Assembly (NCBI GenBank): GCA_012295275.1 | Contig: CM022672.1 | Span: forward strand, 25,296,001-25,360,000 | Origin: Chrysomallon squamiferum | Lineage: Eukaryota; Animalia; Mollusca | Length of the DNA: 64,000 nt | Reading direction: 5' to 3' | Part shown: positions 28,280 through 62,722 of the stretch, in pieces | Layout of the letters: each line of letters begins with the position of its first letter | How positions within the stretch are numbered: the first letter of the stretch is position 1 | The notes under the pieces: generated by a model | What the model was told of the DNA's origin: nothing | What the model saw: only the letters and a program-made list of their open reading frames with translations | The model's database searches: none | Program-made: the position numbers and the translations under genes

Positions 28280-28356
28280 TTAAAAGTATGGCTGATCAGG
28301 TTTGGATAGAAGGTGACATGCCATTCTGAATGAATGTTCTCCGAAACTAAGGTTAC
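28280..28356 (-). CDS. TIR copy 1 terminal exon C (SNLSFGEHSFRMACHLLSKPDQPYF*); full model 385 aa
   Basis: tttttattatttttccag acceptor, phase 1. Peptide homologous to the independently predicted terminal exon at 58774-58874. Confidence 0.72.
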
Positions 28357-29038
28357 CTGGAAAAATAATAAAAAGCAAGCAAATAAACAAACCGACAAGC
28401 AAATAATAATAATAATAATAATAATAATAATAATAATAATAATAAAATAAATAAATAAATAAATAAATAAATTAATTAATTAATTAAAGGTCTTATAGCT
28501 GATAGATGCAGGTTCCACATAGAAATAGTTAACATCATCGCACGAGCTTTAGTCCTTTGAATATCTGAACAGTTTTCCCATTGCATTATCGTGTATAGTT
28601 CTTAATTATAATACTAATTACGCTTTCTTCCATTGGTCCTAATTAAAAATTTGTTTCTCATCCATTTTCTACTTTTTTCTTTATCAAACACAAACACAAG
28701 ACAGCGAAAAAAGCGAGCGAGCGAGAGAGAAAGATAGGGCAACAATAGCAACGACAATAACAAATCAAAGAAAACAAAACAACACTATAAGAGACAGAAA
28801 ACATAGAAAAACAAAATAAAACACACAAACACATACACAAACAAAAATAAGTAATCAAATAAATCAAATAAATGATAATGATAATAATAATAATAATTTA
28901 AAAAAAAAAAACAATTCCAAAAAAAAAAAAAAAAAAAAAAAAAAAAAAAAAAAAAAAACCAACCAAATAAAACCAAACAAAACGAAACAACAAGAAATAT
29001 TAATAAACACGTAAAATGAATATAAACATGTAACTAAC

Positions 29039-29176
29039 TAGATGGAAGCGATATACTGGAAAAGACAGACGACATTTTGTTCCAGCCAGAAGACAGCAGA
29101 ACTCGGACACTGCTGAAAGATTCCAACTCAGCCGGACTTCCACTGCTGCCGCTTATATTGAGTTCAGAAAACGCCA
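29039..29176 (-). CDS. TIR copy 1 exon B (VAFSELNISGSSGSPAELESFSSVRVLLSSGWNKMSSVFSSISLPS), 138 nt, phase 1-1
   Basis: ttttgttctatttcag acceptor, A|GTTAGT donor. Shares the AFSE start with exon A and LLSSG..MSS.F with the hybrid exons. Confidence 0.68.
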
Positions 29177-29806
29177 CTGAAATAGAACAAAATTTGTGTG
29201 ATTTGCAGTCTGAGTTCTCACCATGTACAAATCTGCTTTGTGCAAAATATACCAGGGGTTGTGTTTGCGTCAGAAACGTTCGTTCATTGTTACGCTCTAC
29301 ATGGAAGCCTGCAAGGAAGCCTTGATACTCACTGTTGATAGTTCTGTGTTGAATTTGTGTGTTGATGTTTTGTAGTGGTAATGTTTTCTTTGTGAGGAAG
29401 GGTTGTTAAATACTTTTACATTTAAGCAAATAGTGTACAACTTGAAATAGCACCGTTTATGTTTTAAGTGTTTGCGTCTGTGTATGTGTATATATATACA
29501 TGCAACACCAACACCACACACAGACACCAAACGTGCACACACATACATACACGGATATTAATGATATAATTTCTGTTAAAAATAATAAATGGATTTGTAT
29601 GTAGAAAGCTTATTTATGACATGCGAGAAAATATCTCTCTCTATCTACTTGTGTATGTATTACCTCTCTCTATGTATGTATGTATGTATCTACGTATGTA
29701 TATCTATGTTTGTATGTGGGTATGTATATCACGCAAACAAACAAATTCATGCACATACATGATACACAAAAAGACATATGACAGACACAGTTTATTATAA
29801 CAGTAC

Positions 29807-58500: not shown

Positions 58501-58773
58501 TCCATATGTGTGTATAGATATATACACACACACAGACACACACATACACACACATGTACACACACAGAAACAGTATAATTACTACACTCATACATATATA
58601 ATCAATAGAATATACAAGTAGACTTTATGCTATCACAGATAAAGTGATCAAGAATTATACATATTTCCCCATCAACATATTCGCTGAACATAAGAATCCG
58701 GGTATTTTCTCAAATCTGATAATCTACATTTTAACCAAACTAATGAAAGAAAAAAAGTTCTGACAACGACAAT

Positions 58774-58874
58774 TCAGATGTGGAAAGGATATTCTGGTCT
58801 GCTAAGAAAGTGACACAACATCCGGTAAAACAGGAGAAGATAATGACCAGAAGCCGGCTCTTCTGTTTTCGAGG
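58774..58874 (-). CDS. Terminal exon of the large-exon gene (SSKTEEPASGHYLLLFYRMLCHFLSRPEYPFHI*)
   Basis: Poly-T-cag acceptor, phase 1, in frame with the 59825 donor; homologous to TIR exon C. Confidence 0.78.
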
Positions 58875-59824
58875 CTGAAAAAAAAAAAAAAAATAATAAT
58901 AATAATAATAATAAAGTGAAAATATTATATCAGAATTTATACATATGTGTGTTGTTTTTTCAGTGTTTGTACTTCATATGGTTTATGTAAGTTAAGTTCT
59001 TACTTGAGGTAATGTGTATGTATGTATGTATGTATGTATGTATGTATGTATGTATGTATGTATGTATGAACGTATATATATAAGTATGTTCATATGTGTC
59101 AGCACATGTATGTAGGTGACTGTATATTTAGACGTGTGTGTATGTGTATACATAGATACAAAAAAATGTATTATTCTATACACAAATATACAAACTGACA
59201 TGAACAGTTTTATGAGATTTCTATGGAAATTAATTACACTGCAAATCAGATTGCGATGATATAATGATGACGATGATGATGTTAATTATGATTACGACAA
59301 TAATGGTGATGATGATAATAATATATATTATACATTTTGTAAGATTATCACCCTCTTCGTTTTTCATGTTTCATCCATATTTAGTAAGTTAATATATTAA
59401 CAGAATATATAAGCAAACATATTCTGTAACCGCTGAAACTCTTTATACAAACTGCCTTTATATATATATATATATATATATAAGTATTTTAGTCAATAGT
59501 TTACTTAGATTCAAATTTCAGTCTTGCCGCTGATCAGTTTGAACAATTTGCTGTTTCCCTTGTATTAACCTATATTTAACGCATAATGTTCCTGAATATT
59601 TAAAAAAAAAAAAAAAAAAAAAATCATTTAGTATTATGAATGGTACGAGTTTACTAGTACAAAATTTAAATTATTATTTAAAAAAAAAAAAAAAATCTAA
59701 TTAAATGAATTTGAGGAGCTCGTTTCGGAGGTTTAGTGTCTTTTTGTTAAAATTAGATTTAATAAACTACTATTTATTACAGTTTAGAGTTAGACAACAA
59801 AAAAAAAAAAAACTGTAAACTTAC

Positions 59825-62722
59825 AAGATGCATCTTTTAAAGAATTTTCTTCTTCGGATCTTAAAGTTTCGCTTTTCTTACTGGCTTGCTGAATCGATGT
59901 TTCGTTTTCAGGGACAAATCCACTTTCATTTTTGAACGCTGTCGTTTCTTGCCAGCTGTCATAAGACAATTCCTCGGCGTGCCAGATTTCACCTATCACA
60001 ATATCACTGTTTTCCTTGGTGTCGTCGGAAATGCTGCTGTTGTTTGACGTTGTCTTCTCGATGATGGCTGTTTTAGTGATGGTTGAGCCAACGGACGAAT
60101 TTTTCTGAGAATTCGTAATGTTGTTTTCTGAATAAGGTTTGTTATCTGAATCAACAATAGTCTGTAGAGGTTGTTTTGCTGTTCCATTGCTCTTGGTGAA
60201 ACCTCTCTCCTCTCTGGCTGCATCAGTTTTGGTTATTTTGACCTTTACAGCTTCTGTGGTTTTCTTATCTTTGAAACCACTTCTGTTCTTTTCTGTTGTT
60301 TCTGAAGAAGATTTCTGAATGACTTTTTCTTCTGGATTCTTTGAAGCTGTATGACTGTCAGAAATATAACCAGTGGTTTGAACAGTTGTCTTGGCAGATG
60401 CATCAGTAACAGATCTAATGGTTGGTGGTTTCTTCAAACCACTGGAGTCACCGCTAGACTTTCTGGTCTCAGCAGACAACTGTTTTGTTCCTAAATTCAG
60501 TGAAGTTTCATTCTGTTCATGCTTGAGGTTTGAACTGCTTGTAATGGGTTTCTTCATCGAGCTGAGGTTTTCTGTTTGTTTTAAAACTTCAAATTTAGTT
60601 TCTTCGCTGGTTGAAGACAGAGAGACTGGACTATCGTCTTTCAACGTCTCTTTAGTTTCACTCGCCAGAACGTTTTTCTGTTTCGTTTCAGAGTTTATAG
60701 TCGCAGTTTCTGTTTTAATCTCTAATACTTCTTTAAGTTTCCCTTCGTTCTGCGTTGTCATGGTTTCAGTTTCTGTTTTAGGTTTCCCTTGGTGATGCGT
60801 CGTCGCGATTTCAGTTTCTGTTTTCGTGGGTAAGTACGATACTCTGCCCATCGGCTCTGGATTCATTTCATCGCAGAACTTGAGAATATGTTCCTGCAGT
60901 CTAGCTGCAGTTGAATTAGATTCAGTAATACCAGTTTTATTATCACTCACATTTGAAAGTTTACTATCGCTTGGCTGCTTTTCGTTTACTTTAGGATTCT
61001 GATCTGCGGCAGGTATTTTACTCAGTGACGTTGATGTTTCTTGTGCACTGACAACGATATCGGTATTTGTTTTTGCTCCTCGAATCGATGGCAAGATTTT
61101 ATTTTCGAGATCTGCACGAGATAAAGATGCACTATTGCCAAAATCCTTAACATTATAAAGTCTGTCGTAAACATTTGTCGAATGTCGTCTGAACGATTCA
61201 TTCATCATTTGTCCAATGTCTGGATTCACTGAGATTCTGGTTGTGTTTAGCTTTTGAGCTTCTGTTTGTCTTCCAACTGAAAGAGGAACGTCCCTCCTCA
61301 GCCCTGCTGATTCCAGCCTGTTCACAACTGATGTCTCAATGTCATCCTGGCCGGGATGTCGACGAGAACTCGAGTTTTCATCGTGGGCCGTTTCCTTAGC
61401 AACAAATTTCTCTTTCTCACCCAGTTTGGATTTACTATTAATATCGTCAGAAATTCCTTTGTTTTGTTCCCCTTTGTTTACATTTTTGGTCTCTTTACTA
61501 ATTTCTGCACCATCGCGTTTGTCTGTTTTCATATCTGAACTTTGAACTTTGAGGGAAGGAGATTTCTGAATGATTCCACTGCGTTCTGACATTCCTATAT
61601 CAGTTTGGTCCTTATCGTCTCTAGATTCATATTTATGTGAAGAAATGGTATCGTTTAACTTCTTTTCACTGTCAGTATCCAGCGTGACTCTTTCTCTCTG
61701 ACTGCTCTTTCCTATGCTGGTTGGTTTGGACACATTTAAATCCGTTGAGTCTTCACTTGAAGTTTTCTTACTCATTATCACCACAGGCTGAAGGGAAGGA
61801 GGAAGAACGTTTTTAGACGTGAACTGATCCGTGCTCTCTTCCGAGATCTCATTTCGCAGTAGCTTCACCTCTTTCTTCTCAGTCGCTGCTGCCACCGATA
61901 CAAAAGACTGTTCTGTTTGTTTTAAACTTTGTTTTGCTTTAGTTTTGTTGTCAGTCAGCTTAATCACGGCAACAGGAGGAGCACCTACAGAATCTTTTGT
62001 TACTTTTGCTTCCGAGGACAGACTTCGTGAGGTTACCTTTGCCTGAGAAACGTCAGCTTCCAGCCTTGGTTTTTTGGCAATGTCTATGGACGCTGGAGGA
62101 GTTGCTGGCAGAGTGGATTTCATTATCTCAGTCTCTGTCGAGCCCAGATTGCTCGGCAAAGAGTGAACATCTTTTCTTCTTTGTTTATGGTCCAGTGTTG
62201 CAGACGTACGTAACGAATGCTGCTGAAGAGGATCTTGGATTTTAACGACCGTGTTCTCTGGCAGGATGGCTTCTGAGGATTTCCACTGGCGAGATGTAGA
62301 GGAAGCCAGTTTGTTTGCAGAGACATACTTTTCAGACACATCAACAACAGCTCGCGGAGATTCAGGCAACATTTCCTTTGGTCTTTTAGGCAACGTATGT
62401 CTTCCATCTTCATCTGCGTCTTCGGAAACGTGTTTGACGACGACAGGTGACGGCATGGGCGACACCTTTGAAGTTGCTTTTTTCTTTGATCCCCAGTCGA
62501 CTTCGTCTTTGCTGGGTACTGTGGTGTGGTATGAACCTCGTGGAGAAATGTTCACCACCGGAATTGGAGTCGGAGGTAACGTTGGTTTATTCATGGTGTC
62601 GTCGTTGTTGTTCAAGTTACCGTCTTGCTGAGCGGCTGACTCGGCGTCCTGCTTGTTTCTCGGTGATTTTACTGTTTTCCCGTCTGGAGAATCCCCTTTT
62701 CGTCTCACTGGGCTGCCTTTGT
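59825..62722 (-). CDS. 2898-nt internal exon (966 codons, phase 1-1) of an uncharacterised S/T/K/E-rich, probably disordered protein; 5' exons not identified
   Basis: Long non-repetitive, GC-elevated ORF; tctcttttcag acceptor and T|GTAAGT donor; no globular domain recognised. Confidence 0.9.

What the first reader, a model, noticed from the sequence alone, without database searches (positions are those of the whole stretch)
28280..62722. Candidate undescribed innate-immune adaptor family: TIR domain, swappable phase-1 linker exons and a conserved C-terminal RMxCHxLSxPxxP cap
Seen: the TIR ORFs in the track are only first coding exons. A phase-1 donor conserved in all four copies splices in frame to symmetric phase 1-1 exons (A, A', B) and a short terminal exon. 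Models: copy 1 TIR-A-A'-B-C (385 aa); copy 2 TIR-(A)-B-C; copy 3 TIR-C-like (208 aa); copy 4 pseudogene TIR plus A/B hybrid. No signal peptide, LRR, death or SAM domain is visible. Known: receptor-less TIR proteins with disordered motif-bearing regions are the design of TRIF/TRAM/TIRAP adaptors. The DE..AL...LE.LG helix resembles the TRIF TIR as I recall it. Inference: a modular adaptor family diversifying by exon shuffling.
Basis: partly seen in the sequence, partly recalled or inferred. Interest (0 to 1): 0.88.

Follow-up and report, generated by a model that had tools for sequence, protein, structure and literature searches.

The report
Capped TIR adaptor family of molluscs
This stretch of a likely snail genome holds a tandem cluster of genes from an unnamed family found in snails and clams, whose proteins join an immune-signalling TIR domain to a conserved 20-residue tail through a linker of a few dozen to about 3,000 residues; the tail likely tethers them to a membrane, where they likely relay or tune Toll-like-receptor signals.

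Summary
Four TIR exons share a phase-1 donor; the 385-aa and 208-aa models are open. RNA contigs splice a copy-2-type TIR exon to an A exon; other junctions are untested. The architecture is real and old. Gigantopelta aegis has both a 1405-aa TIR-linker-cap protein, orthologous to the gene at 58774-62722, and a 303-aa orthologue of the tandem copies. Of 67 strong TIR relatives, 21 end in the cap, against 1 of 83 weak ones. Named capped members are gastropods and bivalves and carry no family name. The TIR has an RDxxPG BB loop and no catalytic glutamate (0 of 71), so it is likely a scaffold. Corrections: it is not TRIF-like, and A and B derive from one ancestral exon rather than from swappable modules. 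The TIR itself is the divergent part (11.8% against 2.1% in flanks). Best reading: a membrane-tethered bridging adaptor, with the cap as an inferred anchor. New variant of the known orphan-TIR kind; Gerdol 2017, which may already class it, could not be read.

The parts
32047..32611 (-). Copy 1 TIR exon (acceptor 32611, ATG 32596, phase-1 donor 32047); copy-3-type TIR core, copy-2-type end
31027..31236 (-). Copy 1 linker exon A (phase 1-1, 210 nt)
   Evidence: predicted, junction not observed
29807..29989 (-). Copy 1 linker exon A' (183 nt), tandem duplicate of A
   Evidence: predicted
29039..29176 (-). Copy 1 exon B (138 nt), encodes a short amphipathic segment conserved in the G. aegis orthologue
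28280..28356 (-). Copy 1 terminal cap exon C1
35538..35734 (-). Orphan copy of the ancestral-type AB exon, carried along in the duplicated block
40125..40656 (-). Copy 2 TIR coding exon; the copy matched by RNA contigs X1 and X3
39092..39296 (-). Copy 2 exon A2, 205 nt, frameshifted in this assembly; its acceptor is used in RNA
38325..38462 (-). Copy 2 exon B
37539..37615 (-). Copy 2 terminal cap exon C2
45878..46403 (-). Copy 3 TIR coding exon
45446..45660 (+). Inverted, unusable A-type exon in the copy 3 intron (end approximate)
44272..44372 (-). Copy 3 terminal cap exon C3, 96% identical to C5 of the upstream gene
51033..51612 (-). Copy 4 TIR pseudo-exon (stop codon and insertion)
49352..49548 (-). 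Copy 4 AB exon (ancestral type), ends in a stop
59825..62722 (-). Giant phase 1-1 linker exon (966 codons) of the long family member; orthologous to the G. aegis XP_041368607.1 linker; TIR exon presumed beyond 64000
58774..58874 (-). Terminal cap exon C5 of the long family member

Best explanation
These genes are a recent tandem expansion of the short paralogue of a mollusc family built as N-terminal TIR domain, linker of variable length and conserved C-terminal cap, and the proteins likely work as membrane-tethered, non-enzymatic bridging adaptors in Toll-like-receptor-type signalling. Shown: the architecture, one spliced junction, the family's range, the RDxxPG BB loop, the missing catalytic glutamate, and the excess divergence of the TIR core. 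Inferred step 1: the cap's amphipathic helix lies in a membrane surface and places the protein, as lipid-binding ends do for TRAM and TIRAP. Inferred step 2: the TIR joins or nucleates a head-to-tail TIR filament with an activated receptor and hands the signal to a downstream TIR partner (a MyD88-like protein or a TIR-fused effector of the same clade). Inferred step 3: the linker is mainly a spacer with occasional motifs, so it can shrink from about 1,200 residues to almost nothing. Inferred step 4: duplicates keep flanks and tails alike by recombination while selection keeps divergent TIR surfaces, giving different partner specificities.
For: TIR-linker-cap in G. aegis RefSeq models of both paralogues; the X1/X2 isoform split point aligns with the window acceptor at 62722. 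Cap at the extreme C-terminus in 21 of 67 strong relatives (10 seeds scored leave-one-out, 11 not in the seed; 20 of 44 among those of 250 aa or more) against 1 of 83 weak hits, across lengths 226-3299 aa. C3/C5 dN/dS 0.09, P=0.037. Caps are moderately hydrophobic and amphipathic. P0061 sits in a clade with capped P0044 and P0057 (SH-aLRT 97), shares linker homology with P0044 and ends instead in a transmembrane-like stretch (KD19 1.64); P0023 and P0024 also do (1.65, 1.60). TIR fold at pLDDT 76.6, best matches MyD88, ACT1 and TRAM. BB-loop R/D/P/G in 60/59/51/63 of 71 rows; Glu at the catalytic position in 0 of 71. PMC11745336 (passages) links the lack of that Glu to non-catalytic filament adaptors. 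TIR core differs at 52 of 441 nt against 15 of 717 upstream, P=2e-11.
Against: No localisation, binding or signalling data exist; every functional step is inferred. Caps are below transmembrane hydrophobicity (KD19 -0.25 to 1.29; C1 -0.16), and the conserved terminal [ST][RK]P[ED]xP[YF] looks as much like a docking motif as an anchor. 46 of 67 strong relatives scored no cap (many are short or partial models). dN/dS 1.84 between copies 1 and 2 is not significantly above 1 (P=0.15), and synonymous sites are also raised (7 of 95), so retained old variants explain it as well as positive selection. One copy is a pseudogene and the expressed copy has a frameshifted A exon in this assembly. The closest G. 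aegis relatives lack the BB-loop proline (P0004, P0014). No kB or IRF sites were found at the promoters.
Confidence: 0.5

Rival explanations
1. The short copies are dominant-negative regulators or decoys. They keep the TIR and the cap but have lost the long linker, so they would join filaments of the long paralogue or of MyD88 and stop them, or absorb microbial TIR-binding inhibitors.
For: Short-copy linkers lack the DSGxxS motif enriched in the family (10 of 22 capped proteins, 3.0 expected; none in window linkers). Copy 3 has almost no linker. TIR surfaces diverge fast. TIR-only MyD88-like proteins were proposed as competitors in oyster (PMC4346834, passages), and orphan TIRs as negative regulators, unconfirmed (PMC11103948, passages).
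Against: The short paralogue predates the split from G. aegis and kept linker segments. The window's long-member linker exon lacks DSGxxS too. TRAM and TIRAP are also little more than TIR plus anchor and activate (established knowledge).
Confidence: 0.22
2. The family is the upstream half of a TIR-to-protease cell-death switch: capped TIRs would recruit the same-clade TIR-caspase by TIR-TIR contacts.
For: The nearest TIRs to the window copies are G. aegis P0004 and P0014 (SH-aLRT 99). P0014 carries a Peptidase_C14 domain (E=1.5e-8) with His- and Cys-containing motifs at the expected places. The search also found TIR+Death+cap (P0044) and TIR+Bcl-2 (P0064).
Against: Only 3 of 43 scanned hits carry such domains. 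No TIR-caspase is in the window. P0064 is a long branch of unsure position. Shared ancestry does not show binding.
Confidence: 0.12
3. The family is real, but these tandem copies are neutral, decaying duplicates, and copy 1 may be a second haplotype assembled in tandem.
For: Pseudogene copy 4, frameshifted A2, inverted A3, dN/dS not below 1. Copy 1's unit is 97% like copy 3 on one side and 96% like copy 2 on the other, and begins at a microsatellite. RNA contigs match copy 2 or further variants, none copy 1.
Against: 45 non-synonymous differences without a stop; TIR divergence far above that of the flanks, which neutral decay alone does not predict; copy 2 is transcribed and spliced; an orthologue is intact in G. 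aegis.
Confidence: 0.1
4. The TIRs are NAD+-cleaving enzymes like SARM1 or TIR-STING, held off or placed by the cap.
For: SARM1 and bacterial TIRs appear among the fold matches. The window copies have a Glu three residues before the usual site.
Against: 0 of 71 family rows have Glu at the catalytic position, and the earlier Glu occurs in only 4 of 71.
Confidence: 0.04

Closest known systems
Molluscan orphan TIR / TIR-only proteins (oyster, abalone, Aplysia) and the ecTIR-DC families of Gerdol et al. 2017
   Same: Cytosolic TIR with no other Pfam domain, expanded in molluscs, function unknown (passages of PMC9334734, PMC11103948, PMC4346834).
   Different: The passages read class them only by the missing domains; none mentions a conserved C-terminal cap or linkers up to about 3,000 aa. 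Gerdol 2017 was not held, so overlap with a numbered ecTIR-DC family is open.
TRAM (TICAM2) and TIRAP/MAL bridging adaptors
   Same: Small TIR proteins without catalytic Glu; among the better sequence and fold matches.
   Different: They target membranes from the N-terminus (TRAM myristoylation, PMC9440496 passages); here the TIR is N-terminal and the candidate anchor C-terminal. Sequence similarity is no better than to TLR TIRs; no orthology shown.
TRIF (TICAM1)
   Same: Receptor-less TIR with long disordered regions.
   Different: No N-terminal domain or RHIM; BB loop RDxxPG rather than EDFxxPG; weak profile match (E=0.012); described as chordate-restricted (PMC7075850, PMC9440496 passages).
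MAVS
   Same: Layout only: N-terminal assembly domain, long low-complexity region, C-terminal membrane-type tail (PMC11103948 passages for MAVS).
   Different: TIR instead of CARD; the cap is amphipathic, not a full transmembrane helix; pLxIS and TRAF motifs are not enriched. No homology.
MyD88
   Same: Best Foldseek match (27% identity, E=1.3e-4); same BB-loop box.
   Different: No death domain in the window genes; TIR is N-terminal, not C-terminal.

Membership tests
TIR domain superfamily | Pfam TIR/TIR_2 above cut-off and TIR fold | tested here: met
TRIF/TICAM1 | BB-loop motif EDFxxPG | tested here: not met
   RDACPG in all three intact copies; motif from PMC7075850 passages
TRIF/TICAM1 | RHIM motif | tested here: not met
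   none in window exons or in 22 capped relatives
TRIF/TICAM1 | pLxIS and TRAF6 motifs | tested here: inconclusive
   one pLxIS match in exon B and one TRAF6-type match at the start of TIR1; family-wide both at chance
TRIF/TRAM (TICAM) | TIR closer to TICAM than to other TIRs | tested here: not met
   TRAM tops the single-sequence search, but profiles rank TLR15/TLR2 first and the fold ranks MyD88 first
TRAM | N-terminal myristoylation glycine | tested here: not met
   starts are MVMAD/MADL; upstream exon predicted non-coding but not confirmed by RNA
MyD88 | N-terminal death domain | tested here: not met
TLR / IL-1R | Transmembrane helix and ectodomain before the TIR | tested here: not met
   TIR starts within the first ~45 residues in most strong hits and at the N-terminus of both G. 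aegis models
SARM1 / NADase TIRs | Catalytic glutamate in helix C | tested here: not met
   0 of 71
ecTIR-DC families (Gerdol 2017) | Sequence clustering with a numbered family | not testable with these tools
   paper not held
Orphan TIR (descriptive class) | TIR with no other recognised domain | tested here: met
Bridging adaptor (works like TRAM/TIRAP) | Membrane localisation and binding to receptor and adaptor TIRs | not testable with these tools
   needs cell assays

The most novel reading that the evidence does not exclude
This family is the missing MyD88-independent signalling hub of molluscs: a MAVS-shaped, tail-anchored platform built on TIR filaments, with a degron-bearing linker, that hands signals to same-clade TIR-caspase and TIR-death proteins. 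Its short paralogues carry divergent TIR cassettes kept by an arms race, making the adaptor TIR itself a variable recognition surface.
Probability: 0.17. Interest if true: 0.87.

Novelty: new variant of a known kind. Interest (0 to 1): 0.6.

Why it matters
Oyster and Aplysia surveys report no TRIF or TRAM and abalone surveys no MAVS, yet all list many orphan TIR proteins of unknown role and suggest that other TIR proteins take over (passages of PMC4346834, PMC9334734, PMC11103948). This work picks out one definable family among them, with a TIR signature and a terminal cap, present in tractable and farmed species (Aplysia, Ostrea, Pinctada, Mercenaria). That makes the 'missing adaptor' question testable by cap deletion, localisation and reporter assays. 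Several long members hide under low-complexity labels such as 'dentin sialophosphoprotein-like' or 'serine-rich adhesin'. The divergent TIR core inside near-identical flanks is unusual for an adaptor.

Tried and rejected
Word-index protein searches with the TIR found nothing (59 and 215 candidates); only the cap profile hit (1 of 199). Metagenome scan: 594 pattern matches, none confirmed. Atlas searches gave only generic TIR clusters. First fold, on 3 sequences, was poor (pLDDT 45) and its Foldseek result was discarded. TIR plus cap co-folding gave no answer (score 0.00, alignments not used). VIA-align searches never ran. A second read-laying on exons A2-B gave no result, so the A2 frameshift and the A>B, B>C and TIR3>C3 junctions stay open. 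A, A', B and AB show no homology to the giant exon (shuffle test), so they are not its fragments. An apparent TRAF6-motif excess (36 against 15) came from repeats in one protein; per protein 9 of 22 against 8.4. kB-like sites were at chance (30 against 21; 10 of 100 shuffles). GAAANNGAAA was raised (13 against 6.5) but lay mostly in the giant exon and A-rich tracts, none in the TIR promoters. An exon-enumeration control missed known exons and was dropped. X1's contig length fits one A + B + C + about 237 nt ending near the first poly(A) signal, but contigs cannot show ends, so this is not used. Coordinates were partly off register and were corrected; the copy-3 rows there are meaningless. Earlier-findings look-ups gave nothing relevant. 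No whole genome is held.
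Full report
Observation. The window is AT-rich animal DNA with many microsatellites. Four TIR exons lie on the minus strand, each ending in AG|GTAAA. Three are intact and pass Pfam TIR_2; the fourth has a stop and an insertion. Copy 2's A exon is 205 nt, so the TIR-A2 product stops at 208 aa, and skipping A2 would give 248 aa. Copy 3's A exon is inverted. 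The 994-aa ORF at 59790-62774 holds a 2898-nt phase 1-1 exon followed by a fifth cap exon.

Transcripts. Three RNA runs of one study were offered and laid on the copy 1 TIR exon. In 2 of 3 runs a contig leaves the genome at the donor and continues with an A-type exon start. The TIR part is copy 2 or a close variant (X3: 32 of 32 listed differences; X1: 35 of 38); X2's short contigs are a further variant that agrees with copies 2 and 4 at all 8 listed sites where it differs from copy 1. The other junctions were not observed.

The family. A profile of the four cap exons found one protein among 199 candidates, G. aegis XP_041368608.1 (E=3e-6). It is 42% identical to the giant exon over 329 residues. 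Its isoform X1 (1405 aa) begins with a TIR that is 34% identical to copy 1 (E=4e-20), and the point where isoforms X1 and X2 part aligns with the acceptor at 62722. X2 and X3 lack the TIR. A profile of the three window TIRs plus this one found 177 proteins at E<=1e-3 and 67 at E<=1e-10; the best 150 were listed. An ungapped cap profile scored the last residues of 21 of those 67 above the 99.9th percentile of 60,218 internal windows, against 1 of the 83 weaker hits; 10 of the 21 were seed sequences scored leave-one-out. Capped proteins run from 226 to 3299 aa. Of 20 proteins looked up, 14 had names: 13 molluscs (Gigantopelta, Haliotis, Aplysia, Littorina, Babylonia, Nucella, Solemya, Ostrea, Mizuhopecten, Pinctada, Mercenaria) and one annelid (Owenia). 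All are uncharacterised, hypothetical, generic TIR or low-complexity labels. I chose those 20, partly for having a cap, so this is not a census. The window organism is inferred to be a gastropod related to, but not, G. aegis.

History of the cluster. The top hit, G. aegis XP_041370807.1 (303 aa), is the orthologue of the tandem copies: about 50% TIR identity (72 and 74 of 145), a C1-type cap, and a contig of the same length as the long gene's. In a quick tree of 84 TIRs (3 window, P0003, the strong hits with 110 or more residues, and every sixth weaker hit; SH-aLRT only, careful search unfinished) the window copies group with it and with a G. aegis TIR-caspase (99), apart from the long gastropod proteins. 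Its single linker matches the AB exon best (0 of 2000 shuffles), then B (3), A1 (39) and A' (776). So AB is ancestral and A, A' and B derive from it; none resembles the giant exon. Copy 3's cap and flanks duplicate the long gene's 3' end (82-90% blocks; cap 96%): a short-lineage TIR captured the long gene's terminal exon. Copy 1 is a recombinant, copy-3-like down to 32151 and copy-2-like from 32112; it could also be an uncollapsed haplotype.

Where the variation lies. TIR cores of copies 1 and 2 differ at 52 of 441 nt and 38 of 147 residues, while upstream DNA differs at 2.1% and introns at 0.3-1.3%. dN/dS is 1.84 but not significant (45 non-synonymous, 7 synonymous; P=0.15), and synonymous sites are raised as well. 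The safest reading is old, divergent TIR cassettes retained inside homogenised flanks. Differences concentrate in helices A and C and the D and E regions; the AB/beta-B segment and helix E are nearly unchanged.

Mechanism. The model has a TIR fold (pLDDT 76.6) closest to MyD88, ACT1 and TRAM (TM about 0.55). The family keeps RDxxPG and a W-x-x-Y signature but has no Glu at the catalytic position (0 of 71, against 4 of 13 weaker rows). PMC11745336 states that TRIF, TRAM, MAL and MyD88 lack that residue and signal by two-stranded filaments, so a scaffold role is inferred. The cap is an amphipathic helix followed by [ST][RK]P[ED]xP[YF] at the very end, too polar for a transmembrane helix; three relatives within the family tree end in transmembrane-like stretches instead, one of them (P0061, an unnamed record) inside a capped clade. 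That substitution is the main ground for reading the cap as a membrane anchor; a protein-docking role is not excluded. Linkers are 70-82% disorder-promoting residues. RHIM is absent, pLxIS and TRAF motifs are at chance, and DSGxxS (a beta-TrCP-type degron by established knowledge, recalled) occurs in 10 of 22 against 3.0 expected, though relatedness inflates this, seven motifs were tried, and the window's exons lack it. I put 0.5 on a membrane-tethered bridging adaptor, 0.22 on a decoy or brake, 0.12 on a caspase-recruiting switch, 0.10 on decaying or mis-assembled duplicates and 0.04 on an enzyme.

Comparison with what is known. It works most like TRAM/TIRAP, has a MAVS-like layout, and fails the membership tests for TRIF, TRAM, MyD88, TLRs and SARM1. 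It falls in the descriptive class of orphan TIR proteins. Ten full-text searches covered ecTIR-DC, TRIF/TICAM in molluscs, TIR-only and orphan TIR proteins, Gigantopelta immunity, TIR selection and decoys, catalytic glutamate and TIR-caspase; none searched the cap letters. I saw listings with abstract openings, and keyword passages only of PMC6321704, PMC9334734, PMC7075850, PMC7895826, PMC6836662, PMC11103948, PMC9440496, PMC4346834, PMC11745336, PMC11463336 and PMC8662601; no supplements. None of these passages describes the cap. Gerdol et al. 2017 (PMID 28109746), which classed bivalve cytosolic TIR proteins into families, is not held; it or its supplements may already contain this TIR clade.

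Verdict. Real feature, wider than first seen; new variant of a known kind; interest 0.6.

Noticed in passing
window 54645-55091 (+): Integrase-like remnant (Integrase_H2C2, E=0.002, below cut-off) between the long gene and copy 4; probably a transposon fragment.
   Followed up: partly
window 26950-27948 and 36700-37208: 42-bp tandem repeat arrays (24 and 12 copies) just downstream of cap exons C1 and C2.
   Followed up: no
P0014 (G. aegis XP_041362312.1): TIR of the same subclade as the window copies fused to a caspase-like Peptidase_C14 domain, with candidate His and Cys motifs and no cap.
   Followed up: partly
P0064 (Owenia CAH1781043.1): TIR fused to a Bcl-2 domain with a hydrophobic tail; its place in the tree is unsure.
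   Followed up: partly
P0044 (Mercenaria XP_045189683.2): TIR - Death domain - long linker - cap: a MyD88-like domain pair in reverse order.
   Followed up: partly
P0001, P0002 (G. aegis isoforms X2, X3): RefSeq models of the long gene without the TIR exon: linker plus cap only.
   Followed up: no
window 59825-62722 (-): Eight conserved islands shared with the G. aegis linker, the best a 30-residue Trp-rich stretch near its end; not detected in other capped members.
   Followed up: partly
window 32805-32962 and near 33230 (-): Candidate non-coding 5' exons: stops in all three frames, similar blocks upstream of all four copies, a GTAAGT donor further up.
   Followed up: partly
run X2 on window 32245-32565: Two short contigs of a TIR variant not matching any copy in the window, so more alleles or paralogues exist.
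   Followed up: partly
window 19593-19868: Short ORFs and inverted ends that look like a Tc1/mariner-type transposon remnant (resemblance recalled, not tested).
   Followed up: no
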